A DNA stretch of 58,117 nt, counting the filler, from Platydemus manokwari (taxonomy: Eukaryota), in assembly GCA_037951405.1 (NCBI GenBank). It is 5 parts of 5 records of this genome, joined end to end, with 100 filler letters (N's around TTAATTAATTAA, not from the genome) between each part and the next. Parts side by side here need not be neighbours in the genome. Positions count along the whole stretch, not along the records: positions 1 to 11,943 come from JBBMOY010380000.1; 4 more parts are not named here. One strand, written 5' to 3'. The notes beneath the pieces were generated by a model, which had not been told where the DNA came from, did no database searches, and worked only from the letters and a program-made list of their open reading frames with translations. Position numbers and translations under genes: made by a program. The stretch's first letter is position 1; every line of letters starts with the position of its first letter. Positions 2,954-57,971 of this stretch are shown here, one piece after another.

Positions 2954-4265
2954 TGTAACAAACATAAACAGAAAATCAAACAAAATATAATTAAATAATT
3001 CTTAGTTTTTAATAAAAATTGTCACAGTATCTTGATATTATGGCTGCAAATACAATAATAAATTATACAAAGAAAAATAATAACATTAATTATACTAATA
3101 ATAACAATAATATTTAAAATAATCACAATAATAATAAAAATTAGAATAATAATTTTCTCTCGTTTTTTCCTTCATTCTATTAAATTAATAGGTTGGTTGT
3201 GTGATTTAATCTTATCTCTGGTCCTAAGGGGCTTCAATAACGGGTATGATGACCACGCTATTGGAAAATGAATATTAGTGTTATCTAAAGGTCTGAAAAT
3301 CCTTTGTCGATGACACCGTTGTAGGCCTGCAAAAGTTAAGTGATTATTCTCCCGACTTGGAGTAATGGTAAATAGATTATTATTACTGAATGATATAATC
3401 GTTATATTAACCACTATAGCGCGATATTGATAACCCAGCGTTGATTTATTAATGAATGACAACAATAATGGTTTAATAAAATTTATTAATAGAACAAAAC
3501 GGAACAATAAAGGCGAAATTTTAACAACAAAAATTTAGTTAAATGGCCGGCACGTTACCTCAGCAAGTAACCAGCATAAATCCAAAAGTGGACGAAGGAA
3601 AGCTGCACGACGGGATGGAGAAGATCGACAATGATATAAATTGTTACGCAAATTAAACATAAAATTTTACGTAAAAGGTTTTTTAATTTAATTAATGATA
3701 AATGAAAATTTCTACAAATAAACTCAATCTAACTCTTCAACAAAATTTCGTGGTTCTTGCAGATAATGCTTTCAATAAATTCCTAGCTCGATGTGCAATA
3801 AAATCCGATATTTCCAATAATGAAAATTCTGAAGTCCTAGCTTGGTGTGCAATAAATCCGGTATCTCCAATAATTTCGGTGCTTTCCTTCTTAAAAATTT
3901 CGCTAAAAATGTCTCTAAGTAGTTTTCTCCTTGGTGTGTTGTGGTATCTTGTCTGTGCTGGACTCAGTATTTATATCTACTGAGCCAGAGGCTTCTTGCT
4001 ATTTTTAGAAACATTTTTGTTACCGACGGTAATTCACATTCCGTCTGCATTTTTGAGATGTTTTAAATTATATCTTATTATATAATTATACTCTTATTAT
4101 TATTATCTTTTCCTTTTTCATTATTTACTTTATATTCATATATAATTATTCTTATACTTATTTTATTATTATTATTCTATTTTTATTATTTATTTTATTT
4201 TTAATGCTTTTATTTTATATTTTAATATTCTCTTCATTCATTGTCGTCACTCTCCATCACTCACA
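2954..4265 (-). repeat. putative 3' LTR
   Basis: Starts with TG after the PPT and contains a TATAAATA box and a ~40-bp imperfect internal duplication (3781-3821 / 3835-3874). Candidate end ...GTTACA at 2954. The 5' LTR is absent from the window, so the boundary is unverified. Confidence 0.5.
3963..3984 (-). promoter_or_regulatory. LTR TATA box inside a perfect 7-bp inverted repeat
   Basis: Minus strand CTCAGTA-GATATAAA-TACTGAG; TATAAATA at 3968-3975. Confidence 0.5.
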
Positions 4266-4283
4266 TCCTCCCTTCATTCCTTT
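4266..4283 (-). other. polypurine tract (PPT) of the gypsy element
   Basis: Minus strand AAAGGAATGAAGGGAGGA, immediately followed by TGTGAG (LTR start), downstream of the last ORF. Confidence 0.7.
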
Positions 4284-4727: not shown

Positions 4728-6854
4728 CTACTTTGGAGTTTTTAAAGCCTCGTCCTCGTGGCTTTTAAAGATATGTTGGGGCTTGCCACGGATTTTGGCC
4801 TCCTCCTGCTTCCCCCTTAGTATGATTGGGGGAATTCGAGCCCATGGAATGCTGCTGTCTATATCCACATCCGGTGTGGCATTCCATAGCTCTGTTATTG
4901 GTTGCTTTTCTTGGACTCCTTTTATTGCTTCTGTTGGGAATAACTCTTCCGTGAGTTTTTCGGGTGACGGTGCCGGTGTTTCCATTTCCATCTTCATCTC
5001 TATTTCGTCTTCCCAATCTATCTCTAACACATCTTCCTTGTCAACTTCTTTCTCCATTTTCCCCCTCTCTTTTGCCCATTCGTTATATTCTTTTATTGTG
5101 AGATTCATCTTCTCTGCCTCCTCTCGTATTTCTTTCATCTTTTTATGATCCTCTTGTAGCTCCCCTAGTCGCCCTTTCATCGTTTCTGCATTGTCCCACT
5201 TGTTTTTCATTTCATTAGTTCTTTCTTCAAATTCTTTCATTTTTTCTTGTATCTCCTCTACTTTCCTCCGCATTTCTTCCATTTCCCTTTTGGTTCTTTT
5301 CTCCCATTCCGATGGTTCATCCTCTTTTTCCATAGCTGCCTCATATTCACAGCTCCATCGCAACAACTCTTGCAGGTCTTCATCTTGGTACTCCTCTCAC
5401 TCTGCTATATCTATTCCAAGATCCAACTCTTCTGCTACTTCCTCCACTTGTTGCGTGATAGTTGTCCCTTCCATCGTTCTTTTTCGCTTAAGGGGATGCT
5501 TTTTTAGAGGGAAGTACTCCTCTCCCAGATGTTGTCTGATGGTATCTTCGTATGATCTTTTAGACTCCATCGTCTCTTTTTCTTTCACCTCCAAATCCAG
5601 GGGTATCAATCTCCATACCATTTGTGCTTTTTCTTTTGTCAGCAGAGTCCTCGGTGCAATGGCCACCGAATTTACCCAACTCATTATTGCCACCGCTTTC
5701 TCTTTCTCCTCATTTTCATATTGGTGGACTTTTTCCTCCCATCTCTTTTGTTGAAAGTCATCTTCGTGATCTCTCCATTCTCTCTCTATTGTTTTATATA
5801 TCTCCTTGACACTATCCAACGTGTCTTGGATTCCTTCTTTTTTCATCACTCTATGGATGATCTTAAAGTAAATGTCCTGTATCCTACTGGACACCGATAT
5901 TCTGGCTCTCTTTGGACCTCCTATTCGTGTTTCTTCAGCCAGTTTTTCGTTCACCATGGGAGCTCCATCCAAATCCCTAACTCCCATTACCTCTTCCAGC
6001 CTTACTCCTAGGGCATTTACCTTTTCCTTTAGTTTGTGGCCTACAATTATTTTTTCCTGCCACATCTCTCTCAATCTAACCTTCGCCCAAACTTCATCTA
6101 CCTGCCCTCGAGCATTTGTCTCCATTAATCCGCTCTGCTCGACATTGTATTCCTTAATCTCTGCTCGCGGGCAAATACATGTTTCAAACATGGTTTTCCC
6201 TTTATAATCCATCACACCTACTTATGTTGGGTGATGTTCCCCAAAGAAATCCACGGCGGTTTTTACGTCAATGAAAACTATCTTTGCTTGCTCTTCTATA
6301 GTTAGATTTCTTCGGACAAAACTTAAGTTCCTTTCCAGTGCTTGAAACGGCAAGGGCCTTTCCTTTTCAATGGGTATCACTGGGTACTCTTCTATCCCTG
6401 CCCCCTCTTCCACCATTCTTTGCTCTATGGCAAAAATGGCTGGCAGGTCAGAGCCGCTGATTATTGCGCTCTGATGACTTTTGAGAGTGGTAGTCTTCCA
6501 CTTTTCCTGGGTGAGTTTTAGACGAATCTTCAGTGAGGAGAGGGACTCCACCTCATAATCTTCGATACCCATCTTAATGGTTATCCTTGGGGTTGCCGCA
6601 TGGATCACTATCCTGTGTTTCAATTTAAATATTTAACAGTAGATCCCCAATCGGAACCTTCCCTGGGTTAGGGTATGTATTATAACTAATGTTCTATTTC
6701 TTTTTGTTGGGGATTTCAGTTTATTCGGAATTTCCTCTACTCGTGTGTATCGTCTCATGCCTATTGTGCTTGCAGTGCCTTTAACTATGGATTGCTGCAG
6801 TCCTCTGTAGAATCTGCTGGGGTAGGTTGATTTCTGGGTTTGTTTGATGTTCAT
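4728..6854 (-). pseudogene. ~709-codon accessory gene with a DEDDh (REX4/ISG20-like) exonuclease-fold domain and an acidic coiled coil
   Basis: ORFs 6633-6854, 6222-6623, 5397-6215 and 4728-5366 are all in one frame, separated by single stops (TAA 6633, TAA 6222, TGA 5397). Motif series: KIVFIDVKT / VGVMDYKGKTMFETCICP / IKEYNVEQSGL / KIIVGHKL / VRDL / VKEIY. Confidence 0.7.
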
Positions 6855-7281
6855 TTTCTGAATTACAAAGAATTAATATTGAATTTATTGGCAATAATTC
6901 GATGACAATGATGAGTGAGATGATGCTTACTTTGGAGTTTTTGGGCTGTGATCCCGTGAGCGATTCCAGTCCTTCCTGATTCCCAAGATCGCCACTGGGT
7001 CATCATTGTGATATTTGATTTATTATTTTAAATTTTATTCCCCCTTTTTTTGTCTTACTTTAATCCCCCTATCTGCTTACTTTTACTGTTTGTTGTGCCT
7101 TTTTATCTTTGCTTTATTTTATCCCGCTACCATTACTATTTGTGGTGCATTCTTTTTTTTATTATTTATTATGTCAGTTTTGATGATGACTTTTGATATA
7201 CATAACAGATATTTTTTATAAATAACATGAATATTGCTTATAAATATCAAATATAACTATTTACACGGCATGCTACTGCCT

Positions 7282-9328
7282 TTACAACTCCGTTTCCAAG
7301 ACCCCATCATACATGATGTTTGTGAGTCTATATCTCCTTCTTATTCTAACATCGCGGCTATCGTCATCGTGACTGCCAAAATTACTCCTCCTATTATCGT
7401 CATTATAGTCTCCAACAAAAATACTGCTTCTTCAGTGCAGTGACCGCCTCATGATGCCTTTTTGTGGTTGCTGTTTGTCTTTCGCTTGTCGTTATTGGTA
7501 TTAATTTTGTTGTTAACTGTTCCTGTCCCTGTTTACATATCATCTTCTTTTCGTGATGTACCTCATTATTGAACGTCACTCCCCCTATCTGTTCATAGAA
7601 GTAAACGTCTATTTCTATCGTTGATTGTTCTTCCGGCACCGTTGTCTGTCCTTGTGTGCCATTAGTTATTACTACCTTTGCATTGTTTATATAAACTTGT
7701 GCCGTTAAGCATTTCATTTTTATCCACCTTATTTCTATTCCTGATTCTATTGATTTTACGTACACCCTTCCTTCAATATCTGGTGTTTGCACTACCACCT
7801 CTCTGGCTACTTTTTCCATTGTTATCTGTAATTGAAAAGCTTCCTTGGCTTGGACCTTCCTTATCCTTATCTTATGATTATTGGATTTATCTCCTTGTAC
7901 TTGGTGTTCTATCATCCCCCTGTATATTTTTCTCCAGCATCTTTCTTTGTTTAAACTTATGTTCTGTGCGACTCTCAATCGAAAATCCCTTCTGGGCGTA
8001 TTTTGGTTTCTTACTACGATTGCTCCTGAATAGCTTTGTATGAAGAACTTGGCAAATTTCTCGTCATCCACCATATAATTAACAATCGACTGATGACAAT
8101 TTTGTTCACTTTCCGGTACCATTAGTAATAGCGCTGACACGGCCAAAGCCATTCTTGATGCTACTGGTTGCGCTGCTGCTCTTCTTAATGTATGCATTCC
8201 TACCCATCTTCTCCTGCGGCCTGATGCTCGTCTACTAACGGCTGCTATTGCTGTTACTATGATTAATATCATTATGATTACCAACACTGTTATTACTGCC
8301 CTTTTGGCATGTTCGCTTTGGTGATATTCCTGATGTGACTGTTTACTTTCGTTTTTCATCTTTTCTTCCCTATTTCGTGCAATTATCATTACTTTATCCT
8401 TATCTTCCTGGCATCTTCTCTTTTCATTATAGAACCTCTCTTCTCTCCCTCTGCATCTGCGATTATCCCTCAGCATCCTATAATATTCTAATTCATATTT
8501 AGGGTTGCTAATTCTCTTGCTTGGTTCTTCTTTTACTTCATAGTCCTCCATTGAGTTGTGCGCTACTTGTTGTGGCTTGGGGATTATTACAATTACTGTT
8601 ATTACTTTTTCCTGTCCTTTTTTATTTATTGTCAGTTCCACTTTATATATCACTTGCCATGTCTTATTAGTGAGTTCATTTTGTTGTATTAATTTGAACC
8701 TTCCACTTTTTATTTTATATTTGCCTACGCTTATTATTGTTTCATTTCTATTCTTTCTTCGCATTTTCATGTCCCTTCTTATACTGTTGCTCTCTAATAT
8801 TATCCCTTCCGTGGCATATGCTTTTCTTCTTTCCTCGTTGTTGGTCACCCATTTTTATCATAAATTGCTGAATCTCTATTTTTACTGGTAAATGCAATAA
8901 GTGTTTCTGATAGTCTCGTTATTTTTCCTATTATTATTGTCGTGTTTCCTTCCCTTGTCTCTGTCTTATTTTGCGTGTCGTTTTTCATTGTTCTCCCTTC
9001 AGTTGTTTGTCCCATGGCGCTGCCGATTATTGTTGTTATGAGGCAGTGTAGGAATACTACTCCGGCGATTTCCTTGATTCCACTCTTTCTGAACACCTTC
9101 TTCGCCATCCACTGTATCATCAGATGTCTTTATGTGTAGCGCGCGGTTTTTCCCACCGCTTGTATCACAGCCTGACTGGCTCTTAATATTTTCTTTTTCC
9201 CTTCTGTCATTGTTTCTCTCTCTTCAGCGTATCTCCCTACTTCCTCTGCTAACTTTTCCATTCTTACTCGTGATTCTCTTAGTTGTTCTTCTAAATGTCT
9301 TATCTTCTCTTCCTCCTATATTAATTCA
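7282..9328 (-). pseudogene. env-like membrane glycoprotein polyprotein downstream of integrase, apparently fused to it
   Basis: Reconstructed across TAG/TAA stops and slips in (TA)n and A5 runs. Order: coiled coil, hydrophobic signal (about 9010-9072), region with N-glycosylation sequons, TM (8237-8299), RRASGRRRR, second signal-like segment (about 8102-8152), second ectodomain, TM (about 7350-7425), tail RIRRRYRLTNIMYDGVLETEL*. Confidence 0.65.
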
Positions 9329-11943
9329 TTATATATATTCTTTTTCTAATTGTTCCAGCCATGACTGCTCTTCTTCATCTCCTTCTCCTTGATTCTCTAT
9401 TGCCATCATCATTTTCTGAGTTGCTTTCGGTTTTTGTCGAAGCTTATTCTTATATTCTAGCGCCGGTGTGTCCTCGGCCTTTTTACATCGGTTAATGTGC
9501 ACTACTGTTGGATCCGCATTCTTATTCTTGATAACATATAGATTTGTATCAATGACTTTTACCACTTTATATGGTCCTTTAAACGGTCGTTGCAACTTTG
9601 GCGTTAATCCCTTTTTCGCTTCCGGTGCATAGACTCTCACCTTGTCTCCTATTTTAAAGTTGTGCTCCTTTGCTTTTTGATCGTAGTAATCCTTATATTG
9701 CTCTTGTCTATATTTGTTATTCAACTGAGCCTTCTGGTATACTTTGCTCAAGCTTTCTTTCATTACTGTGACATATTCCTGCTCTTCCATTAATTATGAT
9801 GTTGTTGGTAAATAGGTTAAGTCTATAGGAAGAAACGTTTCCCTTAGGTACATTAAATATCCCGTTGTTTCATTTATTGCCGTATTATATGCAAATAGGC
9901 ATGGTCTTATGTATTCATCCCAATCATTTTGCTGATAGTTTACGAAGTTAGCTAACATATTTTGTAGTGTCTGGTTAAATCTTTCCACTAAACCGTCCAT
10001 TTGTGGATGATATGGAGATGTGTTTAGTTTCTTAATTTTAAATAACTCCGTGGTCTCTTGTATGATATTACTCAAAAAATCCTTTCCTCTGTCGGTTAAT
10101 AATTTACTCGGCGCTCCGTATTTAAATATTATTTCTTCAACCAGAATCTTTGCTAAGGTTTCCGCTTTATGATTCTCCGTTGCAAATGCTTCTGCTGTCC
10201 TGGTGAAATAATCACAAAACACTATTATGTACTTATTCCCCTTAATTGTTGTTGGTAGTGGCCCCATTACATCCATGGCACATAATTCCATTGGTCTTGT
10301 CGCCCGTGGTATCGGTTTCAAAGGAACCTTTTTCCTTCTCCCCGTATTTCTTGTGTTGCACATAACATGCATTGCTTACACCATTGTTCTACATCATTGC
10401 TCATATTTTCCCAATAATACTTCTGCCTTATCTTCCCCAAGGTTTTTTTCCTAGATAAATGTCCTCCTAATATTCCATCGAGGTATACTAATTACAGCTG
10501 TTGTTGCATCTCCGCTGGTACTACCGTTAGTAGATTTACTCCATCTTGATATTTCATAATTACGTCTGCTGTTATCTGGTATCCTGCTGCTATCATTTCA
10601 TTATTCATGATTGCTCCCTCCTTCTTCTTGTCCTCTAGTCTCTTTATTATATTCCTTATCTTTTTTAGGTGGCTATCTCTCATTTGAGCTTCCTTGATAT
10701 CTCTCTCCCCAGTTGTTTTCAACATGCTATTTACAAAAGCTTCTACCGCACTTATCTCCAATATTGATTTTTCCTCCCTTCTCTCTGGTATTCGCAATAA
10801 TGAATCTGCATTAGCATTTGATTTCCCTGATCTTTATACTATTTTTATGTTATGATCTTGTAGCTTAAGTGCCCATTTTATTAGCCTTCTCGAAGTGTCT
10901 CTATGCTTCATAAGGCTCTCTAATGGCTTGTGATCAGTTTTCAATATTATCTCCGTTCCATATATGTATTGTCTAAACTCTTTTAGCGCGAATATTATTG
11001 CTAAACATTCCCTTTCTATAGTTGAATAATTCTTTTCTGCTCCCTTCAGCGATCTACTGGCATACGCTATTGCGTGATCCGATTCTCCCTCATCTTGCTG
11101 TCCCAATACTGCTCTAAGTGCTCCCCCACTTGTATCGGTCATTATTATAAATGGTTTTTCCATATTTGGGTATCTTTAGTACCGGTGCTTGTGTTAGATT
11201 CCGTTTTAATGTTTTGAATGCTTGCTGTTGTACTTCCCCCCATTTTATCTTTAACATACTTTCTGTTTTATTTCGTTTTCCCTTTTCTTTAGATTTCTCC
11301 CTCTCAACTCCTTCCTCTTTATCCTTTTTATTTCTTATCTGTCTATACGCCTCTGCTGCTTTCTTCATTGAATCATAAATTGGCATCGCAATACGTGCAT
11401 AATTTTCCTGAAACCTCCTATAATAACCTGTCATTCCCAAGAATATTTTTGCATCGTTAATTGTCTTTGGTTCTGGAAACTTAGCTATTTTTTCTACCTT
11501 TGTTGGGTCTCGCGCTATTCCTTGCACCGATATTATGTGTCCCAGAAATGATACTGATGGTCTTGTCCATTCACACTTAGTAGGCTTTATTTTTAGTCCT
11601 GATTTTCTTAGTCTAAAAAACACTCTTCCTATATCTATTATATAATCATCAAAATTTTCTGAATAGACTAGTATGTCATCTATGTAAACCATAGCATGTG
11701 GTATATCTGTTAACACCGTGTTCATGAGTCGTTGAAACGTAGCTGGTGCCCCCGTTAATCCAAGAGGCATCTTTACATATTCGTATAATCCTTCTCCTAG
11801 ACAAAAGGCTGTTTTCTCTATGTCTCCCTCGGTAACTTTTACTTGATTATGACCTTTATTCATATTTAATTTGGTATAATATTTTGCTCCATTTAATTTG
11901 TCAAATATCTCTCTAATATTTGGCAGCGGAAAAACGTCCTGCT
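9329..11943 (-). pseudogene. pol: pol (RT, RNase H, integrase), disrupted by stops and frameshifts
   Basis: RT: DVFPLPNI..KLNGAKYYTKLN, MPLGLTGAPATFQR, VYIDDILV, FLGH, FLGMTGYYRRF. RNase H: TDTS, NYSTIERECLAI, TDHKPL. Integrase: GGHL..YYW, AMDVMGP, LTDRG, SPYHPQMDGLVERFNQTL, GPYKV. Frameshift near 11165 and in-frame stops at 10834, 10492 and 9794. The first RT catalytic Asp reads Asn. Confidence 0.95.
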
Positions 11944-12043
11944 NNNNNNNNNNNNNNNNNNNNNNNNNNNNNNNNNNNNNNNNNNNNTTAATTAATTAAN
12001 NNNNNNNNNNNNNNNNNNNNNNNNNNNNNNNNNNNNNNNNNNN
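11944..12043. other. artificial contig spacer (N run with TTAATTAATTAA)
   Basis: 100-nt linker with stops in all six frames; identical at four positions. Confidence 0.98.
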
Positions 12044-20412: not shown

Positions 20413-21222
20413 TTAAATAAAAATCTTCTTATCTGAATCATATATTCCATTGATCTCCAGTGATTTTGCAAATGTCGAAAAGTCTATCCATTTATCTGGC
20501 AGTTTTTGTGAATTTAAAACATAGCCAATTTGTGGTTCTCTATGAAAATATTTACCGTATTGACAGTTATCGGACACATCAAATATGGCTAATATACCAA
20601 TGTTTCCATCACAAAATTTATGTATGCAATTGATGTAAAATTTTCGATCCAATATTTCAATATTATCCAATCGTCTACCTTCAATGCTAAATGAATCGAA
20701 ATCGTATTTCATTAAAGCTGTCGCATTCCATGGAAATGAATTTATCAAATTTTCTTTTCTAAACCAACTCATCATTGTATCTCCATCATTGACATGAAAC
20801 ATTAACCAAGCCACAACAAAATCGCTATAATCTCTGATACTCACATTGATAAAGGTTGGACGGATGTTATTCCAATCGTCAAGGAGAATACTTCTAAAGT
20901 TTTCAGAATAATTTTTATTGCTATCTTCTATTGATTGATCAAAATAATTCGGCATCGTATAAAAATCATACGATTTCACTCCACTTCCTGACACAATTCG
21001 AAATAACGTAATTCTATTGGATAATTTTCTGTAAAATTTCCCTCCAACAAAATAAAGTTTGGAAAAATGCTCTGCAGTAGAGAATTTGCACGAATCGTTT
21101 GCCATAATAAAATATAATTTATTATATTTCAAAGCTTTGAATGCACATTGGAAATATTTCGAATCTTCGCAATGTCTCATCTCACTATAAATTAAAAAAA
21201 TGAAAATTTTGAAAATTTTCAT
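20413..21222 (-). CDS. uncharacterised, probably secreted protein (terminal exon); Cys-containing N-terminal part plus a conserved invertebrate domain
   Basis: Long ORF in AT-rich DNA with an acceptor ttatag at 21185. Motif series LFR..SG.G..Y / FRSILLDDW / VAWLMF / SWF...L.S.PW / FSIEG / RKFYI...C..N.G. I recall this pattern from uncharacterised invertebrate proteins but have not verified it. Confidence 0.65.
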   Translation of the reverse strand: MKIFKIFIFLIYSEMRHCEDSKYFQCAFKALKYNKLYFIMANDSCKFSTAEHFSKLYFVGGKFYRKLSNRITLFRIVSGSGVKSYDFYTMPNYFDQSIEDSNKNYSENFRSILLDDWNNIRPTFINVSIRDYSDFVVAWLMFHVNDGDTMMSWFRKENLINSFPWNATALMKYDFDSFSIEGRRLDNIEILDRKFYINCIHKFCDGNIGILAIFDVSDNCQYGKYFHREPQIGYVLNSQKLPDKWIDFSTFAKSLEINGIYDSDKKIFI

Positions 21223-23372
21223 GTTTGAATATCAATAAATACAGCGATTTTTCTAGTTGTTTAAATAATCAATTTCAGCGAATCAAATACGAGGCACAAT
21301 AAATAATGAGAACGCAAATGAAAACTCGATTTGTTCGATTGGATTAAAATATATTTAATGTTTAGGTCTCCTTGACAACAGAGGAATCCATGATATTCAT
21401 TGTTATTTTTTTGTTCGATTTTCATGATTATGGTTTTAAGACAAGTTTTTCAATAGCTTCGTGCTTATTGAATTCCAGTTTATGAATTTGAAATCATTTA
21501 AAATGTTTACTGTTTTTCACTATTATATAATTTATTATTTTCTATGGGTCTTATATTAATAAATCTCAACCAATCAAGTGATGATTTAAAAGGTTTTAAT
21601 TTCCTCGTATTTTATGCGGTTGTATTGATAACATTAATTTGATTCAATGCATAAAAGATATATTTTTAATCAAAGAATTATAAATCAGAAAATTCATAAT
21701 AATAATAATATCATTAATATTAATATTGTCGGGTGAATTTGAATAAATCTCTGTGAATTTACGAGTTAAACTATTAATTATGTTGAAAATTTCCACGCAA
21801 TTAATTTAAAATTTATCCTTAAGGTTTGTAGCGGTGACGTTAAAATTTGTGAGAATATCTGTCCATGATGTAGAATCGATCATTCTTTTCATTGGTTTTA
21901 GCTTTCAATTTATTTATCTACAGTTTCTGTTCCTCTTCAATATAATATAAATTATTTTTATTTTTTGAGTAAATGTAATATCAGCGCGTTTATCTGAAAT
22001 CCTATTATATTCTATCAATCAATTTATCATTACAGAGGGTTAAATTATTTATTCTCCTATAACCTTATCAATAATGGGTGTTTAATATAATAAATTAGAT
22101 TGCGTCACATTTGTTTATAGTCGATAATGGCCATATTCTTTAAATATTTCAACTGAACCTACAGTTTATTCCTATAATTATCGCTTGATATGATTGACAA
22201 AATATATAGAAGAGAATAAAATGAAAACCTCTTCAAAGACAATGATATAAAACCAATTATTCAATGATTGTCACCATCTTAATAAATGTATGTAGCCAGA
22301 TTTTAGATAATTTTCAACAATTATTTTTTATTATCGAGAAATTCATGTTTTATATTGAGAAGTTTAACAATGATATTATAAAATGATATTCCAGCCATTT
22401 TTATCAGATGCTCATTAGTAATAAGGTTGAATTATAAACATGGAAACCATTATTTGTTTGAATATTGTTTTGATAAAAAATGAGCTGAAATGAGGTTCAT
22501 TTGAAACAAAATTTATAGCTCGAATTATAAGTAGTTAATTATAAAAGTTAATAATCTATATATTAATCTACAAAACATTTATTGTAAAATCAAAAGACAA
22601 ATTAATATAAAAAGTAAATCAATAAAAAAGTTCCCGTGTTTTATAGTTGTCTTTCATTTATTTATTGATCTATATGAGCTTTTGATGAAACCAATTGGGT
22701 CGAAACTCGATACTTACTGCATGAAAATGTCCATCTCATAGGAAGATATTTCAGTGCCTGAAGTTTGGTTTTGCAGTGCATTAAGATGTCGACAATTACG
22801 TGATGATGAAGATAATGATATACAGAGAAATAAGCTATTGGTTTAAGGAAAGCTATTTACGAGGAATTTAAAGATAATTTTAAAATACTTTGTGTTCGTG
22901 ATTAAGAAGATCCTCAAAGAAAATAACGCAGAATTTGAAATTGTGGTTCGAAATATCTCGTTTCGAATTTCATTGAGTTATATTATGAAACATATATAAG
23001 TGAAGTGAATGTACATGACAGTAAAAATTAAAATATAATTAGATAATAAATAATAATTATTAAATATTTATAATGAGAAATAGAATAAGTTTGAAAAGAA
23101 GGGATGTTTATCGTAAATATAGGCATATAAGTGGCGAGATAACTCTTTATTTTCGTTATTTCAACGAGATGCTTAATTTTAGGGTATTCAACACTGAAAC
23201 TAGTGTAGTTTTAAGGAAGTAGCGTGTGCTGTAGTTGTAGAGTAATGTATTGATATTAATCGTACAAAGTCACAATTTAATATTATGTTACGTTCGGGCT
23301 TATTGAATTATTTGTTTTAATAAGCTTAATTTTACTTGATATCACTACTGGCTTAATCAGTCCCTATGAGTT

Positions 23373-23472
23373 NNNNNNNNNNNNNNNNNNNNNNNNNNNN
23401 NNNNNNNNNNNNNNNNTTAATTAATTAANNNNNNNNNNNNNNNNNNNNNNNNNNNNNNNNNNNNNNNNNNNN
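23373..23472. other. artificial contig spacer
   Basis: Same N/TTAATTAATTAA linker. Confidence 0.98.
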
Positions 23473-27519: not shown

Positions 27520-28524
27520 TCAATGTGCTTTTGAAAAAGTAATATCGGAGATTGAAAATTGATTTTTTAGTTGATGGTTTTCAGGTTTAAAAATCTTCAA
27601 AACATAATTTTTGAATTTTTTAATCATAATTATATATACAAATGGATTCACCATAGCATTGAAGCCTAACGAAAAATTACAATAATAATAATATCTGGTT
27701 GCATTTTCGAAATTTAATTTCTCCATCATGTTTAAAATATAAACAATCGAATCTATACTGTACGTTACGATATAAAATGCGAAAATAATTATTGATGAAA
27801 TGGTGAATTTGACTGAGATATTCTTTTTGATTGCATCAGTATTATCATTTGATGCGATATCCCTTGAGTTTAGACTAAATATTATCTTAATATATAGGCA
27901 TATCATGATGAGAGCCGGTAGAAAATAACTAAATGTTAACCACAAATACGAATATGCTTTCCAGAAATTTGAAAATGCCTTCATCTCCCATTGAAATTGA
28001 CACAAATAACCAGGCTCATCTTGATTAAAGACCGTATTATTTTTCAATACCACCGATGTTTCCCAGAATGTTGGCATTGCCACCAAAACCGATATAATAA
28101 ATACAATTACAATACCCACTCGATAAGTATTTAGTTTGATATCGCGATATTTGAACGGAAATACCACCACAATGAATCTATCAATTGCAGTAAGTAAAAG
28201 AATATAGCCACTGAAAACAATAGAAAACCAAAAAAAATAATTAGTATGGAATATTCGACAATAAATTTGGTATGCATAGTAATTATTCCAATCAATTCGT
28301 GAAAGATGAGTAAACATTGCATTGATGACACTCAATAAAGTGATAATATCGATCACGGTTTGTAATCTGACTAAAATACTGCTTTTCTTAGAGCCAATTC
28401 TTTGCTTGTGTAAAAAACTGAAAAGAATGACATTACCAATCAATCCGATAATTACTAATATAATTCGGAATAAGAAAAATCCCAATGAATCATTGAAGTC
28501 TTCATTAATATATTTCATTATCAT
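27520..28524 (-). CDS. rhodopsin-like (class A) orphan or peptide GPCR, intronless
   Basis: Seven hydrophobic segments; IGN (TM1), C at the top of TM3, AIDRF, FLP..IM..LY (TM5), NPFVY (TM7). Likely ATG at 28524. Confidence 0.93.
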   Translation of the reverse strand: MIMKYINEDFNDSLGFFLFRIILVIIGLIGNVILFSFLHKQRIGSKKSSILVRLQTVIDIITLLSVINAMFTHLSRIDWNNYYAYQIYCRIFHTNYFFWFSIVFSGYILLLTAIDRFIVVVFPFKYRDIKLNTYRVGIVIVFIISVLVAMPTFWETSVVLKNNTVFNQDEPGYLCQFQWEMKAFSNFWKAYSYLWLTFSYFLPALIMICLYIKIIFSLNSRDIASNDNTDAIKKNISVKFTISSIIIFAFYIVTYSIDSIVYILNMMEKLNFENATRYYYYCNFSLGFNAMVNPFVYIIMIKKFKNYVLKIFKPENHQLKNQFSISDITFSKAH

Positions 28525-29049
28525 TTTTGATAATTGAATAATAATCACTGCTTCTTTCAAGTTTATTGGATAGAACGATAATTTCCTATTGGATATAATT
28601 TTATAAATAAAACCTGAACTATTTATCAAAGTTATGCCTCACTATTGTTGTTTCAATACTCAGAAACTGATAAGACAGACTTGTAAAGTATATAAGTACC
28701 GATGAATATAAGAGTGCAATTGGTTGATATTGATGAATAGGAAGAAATATTTTACTAAATCCTTTTGTGTATGTACGAATAATACTGTTGAAATTATTTA
28801 TTAGCATTAAGACAAATACATTTAATTGCTTAAGTGGTACATCAAAGATGAACAGGGGCTCTAGTAAAAATTAGCAAACATAATTTTTAACCAATGGGAT
28901 TACTGGCAAACAAGAGCTAACTGTTAAAAATCATTCCAATTATAATTATTGATTGAAAAATTAATATTCGAAGCACGGCAACAATATTTCTCATTTAGTA
29001 ATAAATTTTCAAATAAATAGACATGTAGAACCAGATCCGAAGCAAGTGA

Positions 29050-30775: not shown

Positions 30776-31387
30776 CTATACAATGATACACATTTTATTC
30801 AAGCATCCACGAACTTTTTTCCGATGTTTCCACCCCTCAATAACTGTTGTGATAGCACAATCGAAGATCTGTTTCAAACCTTCTTGTGTCAATGCGGAAC
30901 ATTCAAGATATTTCACTGCCGCTATTTTCTTTGCTACTTTTATTGCATCGGTGTGAGAGACGGTATTGGAGGATGACTGTTTTGCTAGATCTGATTTTGT
31001 TCCGACCAATACAATTGGTACTTTTGGACATTGTTGATTGACAATCGGACTCCAATATGTTTCGACATTCATAATGGAAGTCTTATTTATTAGAGAAAAG
31101 CAAATAATGAAAACATCCACATCTTGAAAAGCGAGATTGATTATTGATCGATATTCTTCTTGACCAGCTGTGTCAACGAGAAGCATATTATAACGGATAT
31201 CATCAACAACAAATGTGACAACATAATTATCGAAAACTGTTGGAACATAAGACGATGGAAAAGTTTGGGTTGTGTATGATATCAACATGCTGGTCTTTCC
31301 CACATCACCATCACCGACAATAACAACTTTTAAATCCTTTTCTTTTCCATTATAATCGCAGTTGGCATAACTATTGACGTGATTCAT
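30776..31387 (-). CDS. Rho-family small GTPase, Rac/Cdc42-like, intronless
   Basis: GDGDVGKT, YVPTVFDNY, DTAGQEEY, GTKSDL, ECSALTQ.GLK, polybasic tail and CaaX box CIIV. Confidence 0.96.
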   Translation of the reverse strand: MNHVNSYANCDYNGKEKDLKVVIVGDGDVGKTSMLISYTTQTFPSSYVPTVFDNYVVTFVVDDIRYNMLLVDTAGQEEYRSIINLAFQDVDVFIICFSLINKTSIMNVETYWSPIVNQQCPKVPIVLVGTKSDLAKQSSSNTVSHTDAIKVAKKIAAVKYLECSALTQEGLKQIFDCAITTVIEGWKHRKKVRGCLNKMCIIV

Positions 31388-33506
31388 AATGAGTTCAATG
31401 GAGCTGGTTATTGAGTAGATATATTGTATTTGTATCTAATTATAGATATGACATCATTAAAATCGACATATACACATTTAGAATTGTTCAGTGATATTAA
31501 TGTGTGCATTCTATTGTGTTTTGAATTGTTTCGCTGATATATATCTACGTGTTTTCTTACATCATCTATAATTGTTCTACATAGTAATCGATACGTTTTT
31601 CAAAAATAGTGAAATTCAATAAATTCTCAAAACACAGGATCGGTGCAAGTCCACATTCCATAATTATCGCAATCATTGGTTAGAAAATGATAAATTGAAA
31701 TTCACAAATTACGTGTTAAAATTAAAGGTTTTATTTTGGAATTTATTTATGCCGGTGTCAATTAAAAAAAACTAATTTTTGAAGTGACAGAAAATATGAA
31801 ATTTCAATTTTATTGATTCAATAATTTGTGATAAATATTAGATATAATTGATCAGAGAAATAACGATTTATGTTGATACTTATTTATTTGACAAAATTTT
31901 ATGATATAAGTTTCATCAAATATTTCATAGCAAGTTGGAAATATTTGTTATAAGATAATAACAGGATTTATTTCAAATCATTTCCAATGCAGCTTTGCAA
32001 TGTATAGAACGAAATCAATCAGATTTTAAATTTAGTGAATTATGCTATTGATTTTTAGAACTAGATCAGTTTCTATTAAATAATCAATGACTTATGGATA
32101 ACGTTTGTCCCAATAGAATCTAAAAATTCAGTCTTATCGGAAATCATTAATCACAATCATTATTCGATAAAAATCATTAAATATCGATATTAATATTTCG
32201 TAATCATTGATTAAACCAATCTTCATCGTTAAATGATGACCAAATACACTTCCAAACATAAGTATATTTGTGACGTGAATAACGTTCTGTATTATATTTA
32301 TCCGATAAAGAAAATCCTTATATTTTTTTAGTAATAAGAAAGATCATAAATACAAAGAATACGACGAAGAATATGATAAAGAATATGAAATGCTGTAGGT
32401 GTTATCAATAATTCATGAATATAATTAGATGCTATTATTAGGTTTACCATGAGTACTATTATTAATTTTCAGATTAGTATTATTATCATTATTGTTGTGA
32501 TAAATTATAATGGATCATCACTAACCAGTGGCACGCGATGATAAATGTGGGTTAAATACCGAAAGATTGAAATCTACCAGCAACTTCATTATGAAATGAC
32601 GGACAATTGGTTCTATCCGATGTTGATGTATAAAAAAAGCACAAACAAATCGTTATATTATTGAACTGTCTGTTAGAATTATTAATGATTTCATGAACAT
32701 CTCTCATTACCAATACAGATATTAGTAATACTAATGGTTGTTTTGATTTTTAACAACGGTTACTTATTTTCTTAATGAGATCAATAATAAGGTTGTTTGA
32801 AAGGTTATTTCCAATAATTCAGTGATTAACGTTATTCAATACAATGTTTATCTATTATTAATTTTTATATATGATCGATGGTATATCATGGCATGTCATA
32901 GTTAAAACAAGTTAATAAATCTTCTTTTATCGGTGTCTTTAAATAATATTCAATGATCAGTTGGTTTGAACTTCCAATTTGGACTGGTCATGTCTACTAA
33001 AATTTCATTTTCATTTCAAATAATAAAATCATTTGCAAATTCAGTCTAATTTTAGCACAACAGTTTAAAAAACAAATTATCGATTGAAAAATGTTCAATA
33101 TCAATAAGATAGAATTAATTAGGTAAATGATAATTTTAAAAATGTTTTTTCAATTGATACGGATCAATATCAAGGCCTATAATATTAGTCTGTTAATCAA
33201 TAATTGATAACCACGAATGCACAAAAATCATCATGGCTTGATGACAGTTAAAGCTTTTCCGAACGTTTTTATTATCAACATTTACGCAATAGTTGCTTAA
33301 ACAATACTCGTTATGCGATACGTCTTATCTAGATGAACAGTTAGATATTTCTTTCGATAATTTTTCACAATGCATATTCTTTTCATGAATGACACGAAAT
33401 TTTTTTGAAAAATATTTTCAAAAATCCTTTCAATGATTCTTGAAAGTAATTTTTGGGCATTTTAAATTTAAATTATGAATTCATTTATACTTATATTGAT
33501 GAATGT

Positions 33507-33770
33507 TAAATCTATAATTCGATAAAATTAAATCTGTAATTCGATAAAATTAAATCTGTTATTCGATAAAATAAATCTGTTATTCGATAAAATAAATCTG
33601 TAATTCGATAAAATAAATCTGTTATTCGATAAAATTAAATCTGTTATTCGATAAAATAAATCTGTTATTCGATAAAATAAATCTGTTATTCGATAAATTA
33701 AATCTGTAATTCGATAAAATAAATCTGTAATTCGATAAAATAAATCTGTAATTCGATAAAATAAATCTAT
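33507..33770. repeat. 21-22 bp minisatellite, about 12 copies
   Basis: Unit TAAATCTGT(A/T)ATTCGATAAAA(T), head to tail, with no spacers. Confidence 0.97.
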
Positions 33771-34169
33771 ATAAGTAAAAAATAAGTTTTGATTTAAAAT
33801 TTATTCTAACTAAAAAGCATATGTAAGGTTAGATAATTTACAGGAAATTATCATATATATACGGAATAGTCTAAGTAAAATTAGAATGTAAATATAACAG
33901 ATAAAAATAAATTCATTGAAATTCATATTTAACATTTCAACTCAATAAGTACTTAATTAATACATAACTCAAAAATCTAATAAATACATATCTTCTAGAG
34001 ACTAAATCACCATACACACTCATCGCGAAAACCTATGCAACAAACTTCGATTTATTTAGTTCAGATTTGTTCAATAAATTTACAGAATAAACCAGAACCA
34101 TAAATTACAAAATTTTTGTTCAATAAACATTACATATTGCATGAGTTAAATATAAGGTTTACGAGGTAA

Positions 34170-35158: not shown

Positions 35159-35258
35159 NNNNNNNNNNNNNNNNNNNNNNNNNNNNNNNNNNNNNNNNNN
35201 NNTTAATTAATTAANNNNNNNNNNNNNNNNNNNNNNNNNNNNNNNNNNNNNNNNNNNN
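35159..35258. other. artificial contig spacer
   Basis: Same N/TTAATTAATTAA linker. Confidence 0.98.
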
Positions 35259-35423: not shown

Positions 35424-38277
35424 ATGAAATTTATAACATTTTCCATTGCGTTAATTTGTCTGGGAATAAACGAGATATTACCTGTTCACGGGACACATCA
35501 TTGGAAATCTTATGAAAGATATGATAACTACCAATTAGATGATCTGCATTTGATGCATGATTGGGAATGTTGGTATAAGGATTACTATTTAAAAGGTAAA
35601 TTTCCATGAGATAAAAACAATTTGACTTTAGTTTTCAGTTGATCGTTGTCCATCGGAAACTTTGAAATCGAAAGAAAAGATTCCATGTAAGCAATTTCGT
35701 AAATGCAAACGTCGTTGTCGATTGATTTCTGGTATTGAAAAGTGTCGAATTCTCTGTGCTAAGATGAAAAGCAAAATCTCGAAATTTATAAAGGTAATTT
35801 ATAAGGTGAATCAAGATGGAAAATGTCGAGATTCAATTATTTGTGTTTACAAAACCTTGTGTAATCTTGACTGGCCTTCACAGATATACCAAGGTTGCTA
35901 TTATACAAATGACTTTTACGAATGGTGGATAGATCATAAAAAACATTATGAAACTCCAACATTAGTCGATCGGGTCACATTGATTAAACGCAGCAAAATC
36001 TATGATTGTATGAACATTAATAATAATCCCCCTCCAGTAGATCCATTATTAGAAAATACGGTTAAAATCAAAACAACTCGTGGAAGAATGCTCCACCAAA
36101 TCGGTGAGTTATGGTTTCGTGTGAAATTCGTCAAAGATGATATGCTCTACTATATTGGTAAAATGTGGGTTTCTGTTAAATATAGTAAAAATCATCAATA
36201 CTTGAAAATCGGAGATAGATGGTTGAGAATCGTAATTTCAAAATATCAGTTGTACTGCCAGATTCACGATTCATGGATCCCTTTAAAAATATCATTTGGT
36301 GTAACTTATATCAAATTAGGTGAAAGATGGTTGGAATTTTTTATTAAAGGAAAGAAATTCTTTTACAAATTTGGTAGTAAATGGTTGGAAATACGCATTC
36401 TTGATCATGCCGTCTATCATCGGATGGACGAAATATGGTATGAAGTTCAAATAAAGAAAAATAGCGATTTGGTTAAGATAGGGCGTGGTTTTAGGAGAAT
36501 TATTATTGTTTACGATCAAACATTCATTAAATTAGGTAGCCGCTGGTTTGAAATGAAATTGAAAACTGAAAAATATTATATTAAATGGGATAAAATATGG
36601 ATTGAAATAGAATTTGATGAAGATTATATTTTTACATTTATCAATGAAGAACGATATCGACTGAGATTTACAGAATTTTCGATTTGTATACAAATCAGAG
36701 GAAAATGGATTCAGGTTGAAGCTAAGGATCAGAGTCTATTCTTTTACATTGATAAAGCATGGCTCAATCTTTTGGTGGAGAAAAATGATCTATTTGTTCG
36801 AGAGAATGGTGAGTTAACTAGAGTGAAATTCAATGATGAAGATGATCTTCTTTATAAATCGTATTATACTAATCAATCTCGATTTGCAAGAAAAATGCAA
36901 ATGGAACCTGATAAACGATTAGCCACGAATGATTTTTACAAAATCGAAAATTCTCGCAACTATAAACTCATCGGTGGTTATTGGTTTCCATTCAATTATA
37001 CAAATGGGGAATTTCTGTATTTGTTATCAGATGAATGGGTCAAAATGAAAGTCCAAGATGACAAGTGGTTTTATTATGATTTTGATCAATGGATCGAAAT
37101 GAGTATCATTGGTGAAACGGAATTCAATAAGATAAGCGGTCATTGGTTGGAAGTAAAAAGAGAAAAAGATGAATTGTTATATTTGGATTCAAATAGGTGG
37201 CACACAATAAAACTTATCGGCAGACTGGTTTGTTTAAAATTTAAAGGTGAATGGAAATTTTTAAATATCGTTAATGGACAAAAATTTATCCGCTTGGGTA
37301 ACCAGTTTGATCAGCTGCGATTCCATAATACCGATGAGAAAATATTTTATCTAAAGATGGGCAAGAGATGGTTTACTTTAATGTTCCAAGAGAACCAGTA
37401 TTTGATTCAAATCAACAAAGCTTGGATAAGAATTGAATTCTTTAGTCATCGATCATTGCAATTGGTGTTCAACGATGTATGGAGATCAGTGACATTCCGA
37501 GATGATAATGTTTATATAAGGAATGGCAACTGTTGGTTAGAAATGATTTACGAGGACAAGATCATTTTCTTGAAAATTGGTGACACTTATAAAGAAGCAG
37601 AAGTATCATCAAAAGGATACTTTCGCATACGTATAGATAAGAATTTCTATACACTAATCGAAAAAAATACTATTCGATTAAATAATAGACTCATAAAAAT
37701 TTCCTATATTGATGGTAAATTACACATGTATATCAATAATAATTGGCTACCATTGAGGATTACCAAGGATAAAATATTGGTGAAAATAGTTGATTCTTGG
37801 ATCGAAAGCCAAATCAATACCAACGGAGAGACTTTTACTGTGATATTGGACAAACAGAAAATGGAATTGACTTTCGAAAATGGAATATTATGTGAGCTCT
37901 ACTTACAACTGAATGTTCCAGTGAACATTCGATTTAGAAAATTATACTACAATTTTGATGGAAAATGGGTGAGAATTATTGCCAAAGACGATCAACGATA
38001 CTTGAAAATCAATAAAAAGTTGATCAGACTCGGTAAGGATTTTTTGAGACGGAAAATTAAAAAATACAAACTCCAATCAATGTTGAAATGTATGTCATTC
38101 ACATTGCGAAAAAGATATAGAAAAACTGATAAGACTGATAATTATGATCATTATTGGGATGAAGAGGAGACTGAGAACTCTCGACAAGAAAAAAATCCAC
38201 TCAAAAGTCTTAGACGAAAACAGGTCTATTTTATCCGGAAATATAAAAAATATTATAGAGAGAAAATATTCAATTAA
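35424..38277 (+). CDS. secreted ~936-aa protein: signal peptide, Cys-rich domain, about 34 x 18-aa Trp/aromatic repeats, basic tail (2 exons)
   Basis: A GT-AG intron at 35596-35638 (43 nt, phase 1) joins the MKFITFSIALICLG.. exon in frame to the 871-aa ORF; the repeat periodicity is visible in the translation. Confidence 0.88.
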
Positions 38278-39700: not shown

Positions 39701-40128
39701 ATTTTTAATTATTCTCCGTATTCTTGAGTTATTTTTAATGCAAATTATTCTTATTATATATTTTTTAAAATTTACATCAATCTATTTTTGAAATTAAAAA
39801 AACAGCATTATCAGTATATAACGTATCAATTTTAATTAAAATTCACAAGTACATATTCTAATCAAATAATGAAAGCATGTCTAGTGAATAAAAAAGTGTG
39901 ATATCAAATAAAATTTAGAGAAAATCTATGATGTGACTGAAACGGTATATCAAGGTCTATAAGCTAATTGATCGAATAATTAAATTTATTATATACAAAG
40001 GATTGAAACACATACTTTGAATATAAATACTGTTTATCAAATAAACTGAAAATTCAGGATTAACTATTAAAATTTTAAAATCGATTTAAAATGTTGGATT
40101 AATATAATCTGATAAATGCATATCATTA

Positions 40129-47931: not shown

Positions 47932-48031
47932 NNNNNNNNNNNNNNNNNNNNNNNNNNNNNNNNNNNNNNNNNNNNTTAATTAATTAANNNNNNNNNNNNN
48001 NNNNNNNNNNNNNNNNNNNNNNNNNNNNNNN
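47932..48031. other. artificial contig spacer
   Basis: Same N/TTAATTAATTAA linker. Confidence 0.98.
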
Positions 48032-48169
48032 GAGCAATTGGCAGAAAGATGGCTTCGAGTCATTGAAAATGATGGACTGTACTTCGAGGAATAATATGTT
48101 CAGCGTTACAACAATTTGTGTTAATAAAATACCTGCATAAAAACATGAATAACTTTTGACTCAACCTGG
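48032..48169 (+). mobile_element. mariner transposon 3' end (transposase C-terminus and TIR), followed by TA
   Basis: EQLAERWLRVIENDGLYFEE* (mariner C-terminal pattern); TIR ...ATAACTTTTGACTCAACCTGG|TA. Confidence 0.9.
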
Positions 48170-57600: not shown

Positions 57601-57971
57601 TAAATATTTTATTATTATTATTATTATCATTATAGTTATTATTTCTAAAATTGGAATCCAACATTTATATCATCATAGTACTTATTGAATTTGTGCTGAT
57701 TTAAATTTAAAAAAAAATAGTTTTGATACATAACTAGGTTTTGAATTATGACTTCTATAATAGTTAAATAAATTAGTTTTCTGCCTCTAAATTGAAATCT
57801 ACTTTTAATTATATTAAATCTTAATAGAAACAATGAAAAATATTAATATATTAATTTATAAAATAAATTCAAGATATTTGAATTGGAACATAAACCATTT
57901 AGTCCAATTTTTCTAATTTAACGTTAATCACATATTTTAAGGTATTTTTGGTTTTTATTGAAAATGTGTTA

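What the first reader, a model, noticed from the sequence alone, without database searches (positions are those of the whole stretch)
7282..9790. Integrase runs into a two-subunit-like membrane glycoprotein polyprotein (candidate endogenous retrovirus with a new env)
Seen: after the GPY motif, repairing a (TA)n slip at about 9330 and two stops gives a continuous coiled coil (EQSWLEQLEKEYNELI*EEEKIRHLEEQLRESRVRMEKLAEEV...YT*RHLMIQW). It leads into signal 1, ectodomain 1 (A5 slip at about 8852), TM, RRASGRRRR, signal 2, ectodomain 2, TM and tail, with seven N-x-S/T sequons in the presumed luminal parts. Established: errantivirus env is normally a separate spliced ORF; pol-fused env is known from some nematode BEL/Pao elements; signal-ecto-TM-signal-ecto-TM is the layout of bunyavirus Gn/Gc precursors. 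Inference: an env-like acquisition of unknown origin. Both ectodomains are short and Cys-poor, unlike class II fusogens, so the fold may be new or not fusogenic.
Basis: partly seen in the sequence, partly recalled or inferred. Interest (0 to 1): 0.8.

Follow-up and report, generated by a model that had tools for sequence, protein, structure and literature searches.

The report
Gypsy retrotransposon with pol-fused surface protein
This is a decayed copy of a jumping gene whose four close relatives carry, joined directly onto the integrase gene, a predicted cell-surface protein built from fibronectin-type domains rather than a known viral fusion protein; it likely works as an attachment protein, a kind of retrotransposon "envelope" that our literature searches did not find described.

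Summary
The region is the 3' part of a decayed Ty3/Gypsy LTR retrotransposon on the minus strand. This copy alone cannot settle the fusion. Four close relatives, found with pol queries only (L001-L004; 58-64% integrase identity where measured against the window), all run from integrase without a stop into a signal peptide and ectodomain. In L003 and L004 the frame stays open through the TM and tail. The relatives' ectodomains are fibronectin type III (FN3)-like (ESM Atlas 0.95; PDB profile hits mostly FN3 proteins), Cys-poor and without furin sites. So this is not a bunyavirus-like class II or errantivirus F/gB envelope. For the window's own ectodomains FN3 is only inferred: one weak alignment to L001, a negative profile test, two failed folds. 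The window has two signal-ectodomain-TM units and an extra coiled coil; relatives have one unit. A third ORF (ISG20-like exonuclease, probably inactive) is shared with L003 and L004. Verdict: a new variant of env-position protein in a Gypsy lineage, most likely for attachment, not fusion.

The parts
11117..11941 (-). Reverse transcriptase; the 5' part of the element is lost at an assembly gap (N runs 11944-12043)
   Evidence: PF00078 E 1.7e-23; N runs
10837..11175 (-). RNase H (frame break at its 5' side, stop at its 3' side)
   Evidence: PF17917 E 2.6e-38; tblastn of the L003 ORF changes frame here
9797..10491 (-). Integrase zinc-finger region and catalytic core (frame break near 10350, stop at 9796)
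   Evidence: PF00665 E 7.6e-13; 60% identity to L001; frames
9332..9793 (-). Integrase C-terminal part with GPY module, then acidic linker
   Evidence: PF22938 E 2.9e-6; 53% identity to L001
9142..9315 (-). Charged, predicted coiled-coil insert; relatives lack an insert of this size
   Evidence: 44% E/K/R; GPY-to-signal distance about 160 aa here against about 63-85 aa in relatives
9127..9141 (-). R-Y-x-x-R motif shared with all four close relatives, interrupted here by the stop at 9132
   Evidence: chance of such a match in the shuffled 90-aa piece 0.023
9010..9108 (-). Predicted signal peptide 1 (in-frame ATGs at 9120 and 9108)
   Evidence: hydropathy 2.03 at 9069; same position as the relatives' signals
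8300..9009 (-). Ectodomain 1: Thr/Asn-rich piece, beta-rich domain, charged helical stalk; frame break near 8852; 6 sequons
   Evidence: low-confidence strands at aa 29-92; weak in-register alignment to L003 domain 2 (38 of 2000 shuffles)
8207..8299 (-). TM1 followed by the basic RRASGRRRR segment (predicted cytosolic)
   Evidence: hydropathy 3.25
8102..8155 (-). Predicted signal peptide or signal-anchor 2
   Evidence: hydropathy 1.55 over 19 aa; a diverged contig spans 8147-8777 (record 5)
7445..8101 (-). Ectodomain 2: two predicted beta-sandwich (likely FN3-like) domains and a Thr-rich stalk; 4 Cys, 2 sequons
   Evidence: aligns to the L001 ectodomain (1 of 2000 shuffles BLOSUM62, 30 of 2000 BLOSUM45); profile tests negative; folds failed
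7257..7427 (-). TM2 (other frame), stop at 7343, short tail
4728..6854 (-). ORF3 (one frame, stops at 6635, 6224, 5399): lineage-specific N-terminal part, ISG20-like DEDDh exonuclease fold, acidic coiled-coil C-terminus
   Evidence: ISG20L2 E 7.6e-4; similar to ORF3 of L003 and L004, z 11.7 and 20.8, 0 of 300 shuffles each
4018..4283 (-). Polypurine tract (4283-4266) followed by a candidate 3' LTR (TG at 4265 to CA at 4018, 248 bp; its end is uncertain)
   Evidence: no second copy in the window

Best explanation
This is a decayed copy of a Ty3/Gypsy retrotransposon lineage whose pol frame continues past integrase into a predicted type I membrane protein, FN3-like in the relatives and likely so here, which would act as an attachment protein rather than a fusogen. 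Inferred mechanism: the internal signal after integrase takes the nascent Pol to the ER. Signal peptidase releases the surface protein, and the element's protease would free integrase from the signal stub. The stub would hold Pol at the membrane that carries the FN3 protein, so capsids leave in vesicles or particles that stick to neighbouring cells (plausibly germline) and are taken up by host routes. In the window's family a second signal-ectodomain-TM unit and a coiled-coil linker were added, giving two surface proteins from one precursor. ORF3 is a separate, probably non-catalytic exonuclease-fold protein. Shown: Gypsy pol; in-frame fusion in 4 relatives; FN3 likeness in relatives; shared ORF3. 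Inferred: fusion in the window's intact ancestor (about 0.8), FN3 fold of unit 2 (0.6) and unit 1 (0.45), topology, processing, attachment role (0.4-0.5).
For: Relatives were found with pol queries only. L001: 977-aa ORF RT-RH-IN-signal-FN3-like; after one in-frame stop the same frame goes on to a third domain and a TM. L002: 630-aa frame IN-signal-domain to the contig end. L003: 1187-aa frame RT to TM and tail; L004: 584-aa frame IN C-terminus to TM and tail. Window, L001, L002 and L003 form one clade on a 17-row integrase tree (95/90; L004 and L005 lack the core and were left out). FN3: Atlas first hit for the L003 ectodomain is FN3, 0.95 with 187 shared features; a 7-domain profile gives 37 PDB hits at E<=10, best E 0.0011, mostly FN3-containing proteins (CD45, fibronectin, neogenin, DCC, NCAM2, tenascin); 7 of 7 domains pass leave-one-out (0 of 200 shuffles each). 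Breaks in the extension (5-6 in 2072 nt) match the decay rate of pol (5 in 2610 nt; expected 4.0, P(>=6)=0.21). No R-x-K/R-R site and 2-6 Cys in the 4 ectodomains counted.
Against: The window's three beta-rich domains do not score on the relatives' profile (HMMER 208, 189 and 601 of 1000 shuffles; hhalign probability 0.1-0.3%; glocal z 0.5-0.6). The one good pairwise hit is 1 of 15 comparisons per matrix, and the reversed sequence scores 47 against 60. Both folds failed (pLDDT 41.6 and 31.0). The Atlas hits for window ectodomain 2 are only 0.75-0.77 (cadherin and fibulin Ig-like). Pfam fn3 stays below its cut-off in relatives (E 0.0059) and the Atlas recognition score for L003 is under its threshold (1941 against 2300). 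In-frame ATGs precede signal 1, so a separate message is possible. No unbroken copy of the window's own family was seen across 9330-9130. No evidence on expression, particles or binding.
Confidence: 0.6

Rival explanations
1. Same fused FN3-type protein, but it stays on the host cell surface and is not part of particles. It acts as a decoy receptor, adhesion modifier or exclusion factor that favours cells carrying the element.
For: FN3 type I proteins are typical adhesion and receptor modules (PDB hits). No fusogen features were found. The L004 tail has a PPxY motif that could control turnover.
Against: Joining to pol, kept across elements only about 60% identical in integrase, ties its synthesis to particle enzymes. 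A pure host modifier would more simply be a separate ORF, as ORF3 is (inference).
Confidence: 0.22
2. The surface protein is made mainly from its own spliced or internally started mRNA, as errantivirus and Tor env are, and the open frame with pol is secondary. In the window's family pol may really end at or before 9132.
For: ATGs at 9120 and 9108 sit just before signal 1; L001 and L003 also have a Met between motif and signal (2 of 4). Tor env is spliced or internally promoted (PMC4402516, passages). The coiled-coil insert and second unit show the window's family has been rearranged.
Against: L002 and L004 have no Met there. No stop separates IN from the signal in 4 of 4 relatives. The window's stop at 9132 interrupts a motif conserved in all four.
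Confidence: 0.12
3. A true fusogen of a new fold, or a highly reduced two-subunit class II-like Gn/Gc pair, making the element an infectious retrovirus-like agent.
For: Signal-ecto-TM-signal-ecto-TM layout and 8 sequons in the window; env position; no sequence homologs of the 483-aa ORF, so its fold is formally open.
Against: Relatives have one unit made of FN3-like domains. The window's ectodomains are about 220-240 aa with 2 and 4 Cys. No viral glycoprotein family at E<=1 in Pfam. No furin site or internal fusion-peptide-like hydrophobic peak.
Confidence: 0.06

Closest known systems
Metazoan errantiviruses (env-carrying Ty3/Gypsy; Chary and Hayashi, PMC13524379)
   Same: Ty3/Gypsy pol followed by a signal-ectodomain-TM protein before the 3' LTR
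   Different: Their Env is F-type or HSV/gB-type, with conserved Cys bridges and (F-type) a furin site and fusion peptide, in its own env ORF. Here it is in frame with pol, Cys-poor and FN3-like; 'fibronectin' and 'fused' occur 0 times in that paper's main text.
Bdelloid Vesta/Juno/TelKA elements (Rodriguez et al., PMC5408684)
   Same: Gypsy-type elements with varied ORF3s, including short TM proteins and DnaQ-like 3'-5' exonucleases
   Different: Their extra ORFs are separate ORF3s and the exonucleases are DEDDy/RNase D-like with catalytic residues kept. Here a pol-fused FN3-like protein and an ISG20-like, apparently degenerate exonuclease ORF occur together.
Oikopleura Tor elements (PMC4402516)
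   Same: Gypsy-type elements with a membrane glycoprotein gene downstream of pol
   Different: Tor Env is a third gene, furin-cleaved, with seven conserved Cys, from a spliced or internal-promoter mRNA.
Planarian Burro elements (PMC6431247) and nematode BEL/Pao Cer7/Cer13
   Same: An envelope-like region inside the polyprotein frame
   Different: Burro's env is F-like and lies between gag and pol. The BEL/Pao case is a different superfamily with a phlebovirus-like glycoprotein (recalled; the Malik 2000 paper was not held).
Cellular FN3 type I membrane proteins (CD45, neogenin/DCC, NCAM2, Dscam)
   Same: Signal, tandem FN3 domains, stalk, TM, tail; best PDB matches of the relatives' profile
   Different: Here 2-3 highly diverged domains are encoded inside a retrotransposon pol frame; no specific donor gene was identified.

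Membership tests
Ty3/Gypsy LTR retrotransposon | pol order RT-RNase H-integrase | tested here: met
   the integrase profile's best PDB hit is Ty3 Gag-Pol, E 5.4e-20
Ty3/Gypsy LTR retrotransposon | GPY/F module at the integrase C-terminus | tested here: met
   PF22938 above cut-off; alignment
Ty3/Gypsy LTR retrotransposon | gag, protease, primer-binding site and two LTRs | tested here: inconclusive
   5' end lost at the gap 11944-12043; PPT and candidate 3' LTR found; a protease-like motif seen by eye upstream of RT in L001
Errantivirus env (F-type or gB-type) | env in its own ORF apart from pol | tested here: not met
   in frame with integrase in 4 of 4 close relatives; inferred for the window
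Errantivirus env (F-type or gB-type) | homology to F or gB; conserved Cys bridges; furin site and fusion peptide (F) | tested here: not met
   no such Pfam match; 2-6 Cys and no R-x-K/R-R in 4 of 4 ectodomains counted
Bunyavirus-type Gn/Gc (class II fusogen) | signal-ecto-TM-signal-ecto-TM precursor layout | tested here: met
   by hydropathy in the window only; relatives have one unit
Bunyavirus-type Gn/Gc (class II fusogen) | long (about 450 aa), Cys-rich Gc ectodomain (size and Cys content recalled) | tested here: not met
   ectodomain 2 is 219 aa with 4 Cys
Bunyavirus-type Gn/Gc (class II fusogen) | class II fold with a fusion loop | tested here: inconclusive
   models too poor (pLDDT 41.6 and 31.0); Foldseek PDB gave 0 hits at E<=0.001
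Fibronectin type III domain (relatives L001-L004) | about 90-aa repeat with FN3 sequence signature | tested here: met
   Atlas 0.95; PDB profile hits; leave-one-out 7 of 7; Pfam fn3 below cut-off; no structure was predicted for them
Fibronectin type III domain (window ectodomains) | FN3 signature or fold | tested here: inconclusive
   weak pairwise support, negative profile tests, failed folds
DEDDh exonuclease (ISG20/REX4-like), ORF3 | sequence homology | tested here: met
   ISG20L2 E 7.6e-4, ISG20 E 0.0032; PF00929 E 0.0033 in L003, below cut-off
DEDDh exonuclease (ISG20/REX4-like), ORF3 | acidic D-x-E catalytic pair in motif I (motif recalled) | tested here: not met
   by eye the pair is incomplete in 3 of 3 copies: window, L003, L004
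Infectious endogenous retrovirus | enveloped particles and membrane fusion or cell entry | not testable with these tools
   needs experiments; no RNA holder was listed

The most novel reading that the evidence does not exclude
An undescribed Ty3/Gypsy lineage that uses captured fibronectin type III adhesion modules, made as the C-terminal part of Pol and displayed on its particles or vesicles, to move between cells without a viral fusogen of its own: a third kind of Gypsy 'envelope' beside F-type and gB-type. The window's family has expanded it to a two-protein precursor.
Probability: 0.35. Interest if true: 0.88.

Novelty: new variant of a known kind. Interest (0 to 1): 0.7.

Why it matters
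Env genes of invertebrate LTR elements are classed as captured viral fusogens (F-type or gB-type in the survey PMC13524379). A lineage that keeps a host-like FN3 surface protein in frame with integrase, across elements about 60% identical in integrase, points to another route by which retrotransposons gain a membrane stage: attachment without their own fusogen. It gives a defined protein with which to test how env-less Gypsy elements pass between cells. It also warns that 'env-like' calls made from signal, TM and sequon patterns can hide other folds.

Tried and rejected
No genome is held for the window, so copies could not be compared directly. Homolog searches with the 483-aa ORF found nothing: 0 of 7308 near-length candidates, 0 of 840 shorter ones, 0 hits among 1.84 billion representatives; longer proteins were not searched with it. 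No RNA holder listed, which says nothing about expression. Laying run X1 showed only the top rows of its tables, none at 9330, 9318, 9132 or 8852, so the state of other copies there is unknown; two single-contig joints (9122-9357, and 7694-8652 with a 24-letter side) were too weak to use; contig depth was not used as a copy number. Profiles of the relatives' domains did not detect the window's domains. Unit 1 against unit 2 showed no clear similarity (22 of 300 shuffles), so simple tandem duplication is not shown. A metagenome scan with the window's integrase tail alone, a viral-contig scan with A1, a phage search with the L003 ectodomain and an ORF3 search in the two assemblies behind L001 and L002 found nothing; one search found only the known loci. 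The 12 IMG/VR loci are a weak control: none has a hydrophobic extension, but only 2 of 12 have a GPY/F motif in the same ORF. Papers PMC4465651, PMC8905726, PMC8166898 and PMC2717909 (passages) were irrelevant. Five look-ups of earlier findings returned nothing. No complex prediction was sent.
Full report
Setting. The window is AT-rich (GC mostly 21-34%, up to 42% inside the element) and carries a rhodopsin-family GPCR, a Ras-family GTPase and a protein kinase, so the host is most likely an invertebrate animal (inference). On the minus strand lie RT (11941-11117), RNase H (11175-10837), integrase core (10375-9797) and an integrase C-terminus with GPY module (9793-9332). This order, and Ty3 Gag-Pol as best PDB match of the integrase profile (E 5.4e-20), make it a Ty3/Gypsy element. 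Its 5' end is lost at an assembly gap (11944-12043). A polypurine tract at 4283-4266 followed by TG marks a candidate 3' LTR.

Check of the observation. There is also a third frame break before TM2 and a stop at 7343 just after it. Eight sequons are present against 4.0 expected (P=0.033). The copy is decayed throughout: pol has 5 breaks in 2610 nt, and the 5-6 breaks in the 2072-nt extension fit that rate (expected 4.0, P(>=6)=0.21). So this copy cannot decide by itself whether a stop after integrase is original.

Other copies. One public run holds 0.65 of the sampled words. Of its contigs, 1218 were laid, 917 of them under 95% alike, and all 30 bins were covered. Diverged contigs span 7386-7934 (97 other letters) and 8147-8777 (118 other letters, 22 gaps). 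The second runs from ectodomain 1 across TM1 into signal 2, so the two-unit arrangement is probably not unique to this copy. Contigs differ in length from the window at two pol frame breaks (near 10352 and 11176), and the only contig shown at 7437-7446 differs there at 5 places, next to the break before TM2. The printed tables were cut and show nothing at 9330, 9318, 9132 or 8852.

Relatives decide the fusion question. The 483-aa ORF has no sequence homologs. A search with the integrase tail among longer proteins gave 2 hits of 177 candidates: P0001 (47%) and P0002 (38%). Scans with pol queries then gave L001 and L002 (2 of 11 pattern hits) and L003-L005 (3 of 348). In all four close relatives the frame runs from GPY/F without a stop into a hydrophobic signal 63-85 aa later. 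L003 is open for 1187 aa from RT to a TM and tail; L004 for 584 aa from the integrase C-terminus to a TM and tail. L001 is itself decayed (one stop in RT, one in the ectodomain) but keeps the frame to a TM. L002 runs to its contig end. The two distant relatives, P0002 and L005, have no such extension. Window, L001, L002 and L003 form a clade (95/90) on a 17-row integrase tree; L004 and L005 were left out because their contigs start after the core. All four relatives carry an R-Y-x-x-R motif 12-41 aa before the signal; the window has it 24 aa before signal 1, with the 9132 stop inside it (chance 0.023). That stop therefore looks like a lesion. L001 and L002 lie in assemblies labelled as bacterial MAGs; they are probably stray eukaryotic contigs (inference).

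What the ectodomain is. The relatives' ectodomains consist of about 90-aa repeats (seven whole domains aligned). A profile of them retrieves mostly FN3-containing proteins from the PDB (37 hits at E<=10, best 0.0011). The ESM Atlas places the L003 pair with FN3 at 0.95, 187 shared features, though its recognition score is below threshold. Pfam fn3 is hit below cut-off (E 0.0059; 1 of 7 domains). Each domain passes a leave-one-out test (7 of 7). For the window the evidence is weaker. Ectodomain 2 aligns with the L001 ectodomain over about 70 residues across a domain boundary (1 of 2000 shuffles with BLOSUM62, 30 of 2000 with BLOSUM45; 15 comparisons per matrix; reversed control 47 against 60; BLASTP E 0.017). 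Ectodomain 1 aligns weakly and in register with L003 domain 2 (38 of 2000). Against this, three profile methods find nothing, Atlas hits are only 0.75-0.77 to cadherin and fibulin Ig-like clusters, and both folds failed. FN3 is thus supported for the lineage and inferred for the window from position, beta-rich pattern and one alignment. Class II, F-type and gB-type features are missing: about 220-240-aa ectodomains, 2-6 Cys, no R-x-K/R-R site, no viral glycoprotein family in Pfam. RRASGRRRR follows TM1 and would be cytosolic, so it is a topology signal rather than a furin site (inference).

What is special in the window. It has two signal-ectodomain-TM units where the three relatives seen through to a TM have one, and about 80-100 extra residues of charged coiled coil between GPY and the motif. 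The two units are not clearly alike (22 of 300 shuffles), so the second may come from an old duplication or a capture from another family.

ORF3. Its middle resembles ISG20L2 and ISG20 (E 7.6e-4 and 0.0032). L003 and L004 have the same ORF right after the membrane protein (615 and 753 aa; z 11.7 and 20.8; alignment). The motif I acidic pair is incomplete in all three by eye, so the domain is probably non-catalytic. The whole layout pol-surface protein, ORF3, LTR is a lineage trait.

Mechanism (inferred). An internal signal would take Pol to the ER, as internal signals do in alphavirus and flavivirus polyproteins (recalled). Signal peptidase would release one type I protein, or two in the window's family. 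The R-Y-x-x-R motif resembles the foamy virus Gag chromatin-binding sequence that docks on the nucleosome acidic patch (PMC6021111, passages); this suggests it marks the working end of integrase, a lead only. FN3 arrays bind partners and are not known as fusogens (established knowledge), so attachment of particles or vesicles to neighbouring cells is the favoured role. Rivals are a cell-surface modifier that is not on particles, a separately expressed ORF, and a true fusogen.

Literature. Seen: PMC5408684 parts 1-2 of 5; PMC13524379 abstract, first parts of sections 5 and 6 and a term search; PMC6338049 part 1 of 4; passages of PMC6431247, PMC4402516, PMC6021111 and of four irrelevant papers. 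Malik et al. 2000 was not held. Searches for FN3 or fibronectin with Gypsy/LTR terms (3, 5, 1 and 1 papers; three of these checked by passage, the rest judged from listings) and for in-frame env-like regions (0 papers) found no description of such a lineage. Repbase, GyDB and subscription journals could not be searched, no supplements were read (the element tables of PMC13524379 may bear on this), and the lineage was not placed among named Gypsy clades.

Verdict. Observation partly confirmed; interpretation partly supported. New variant of a known kind; interest 0.7.

Noticed in passing
window 35632-38277 (+): 881-aa stop-to-stop ORF made largely of short aromatic-rich, beta-hairpin-like repeats; no Pfam match below E 0.06. 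Unexplained.
   Followed up: no
window 4728-6854 (-): Third ORF of the element with an ISG20-like, probably inactive exonuclease domain, shared with L003 and L004.
   Followed up: yes
L004 about 1650-1700: The cytoplasmic tail of the fused membrane protein has a PPxY motif, like viral late domains or NEDD4-binding sites (motif meaning recalled); not seen in the L003 or window tails.
   Followed up: no
L001 and L002 (records JBOFCV010000293.1, JAYSWT010000083.1): Gypsy retrotransposon contigs sit in assemblies labelled as bacterial MAGs, and P0001 is named as a Turicibacter protein; probably eukaryotic contamination.
   Followed up: partly
window 27520-28638 (-), 30776-31435 (-), 40108-41073 (+): Uninterrupted ORFs for a rhodopsin-family GPCR, a Ras-family (Rho-like by eye) GTPase and a casein kinase 1-like (by eye) kinase.
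   Followed up: no
window 33505-33807: Tandem array with a period of about 21 bp.
   Followed up: no
window 48032-48171 and 57970-58109: 140-nt inverted repeat, 98% complementary, one arm directly beside an assembly gap; may be an assembly effect or transposon ends.
   Followed up: no
window 11944-12043, 23373-23472, 35159-35258, 47932-48031: Four assembly gaps of the same build (44 N, 12 bases, 44 N), a scaffolding spacer.
   Followed up: no
window about 3700-4000: Beyond the candidate LTR end lies another stretch with an imperfect short direct repeat and much contig cover; the LTR may be longer, or a second repeat lies here.
   Followed up: no
window 20413-21231 (-) and 54533-56323 (+): ORFs of 272 and 596 aa without a significant Pfam match.
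   Followed up: no
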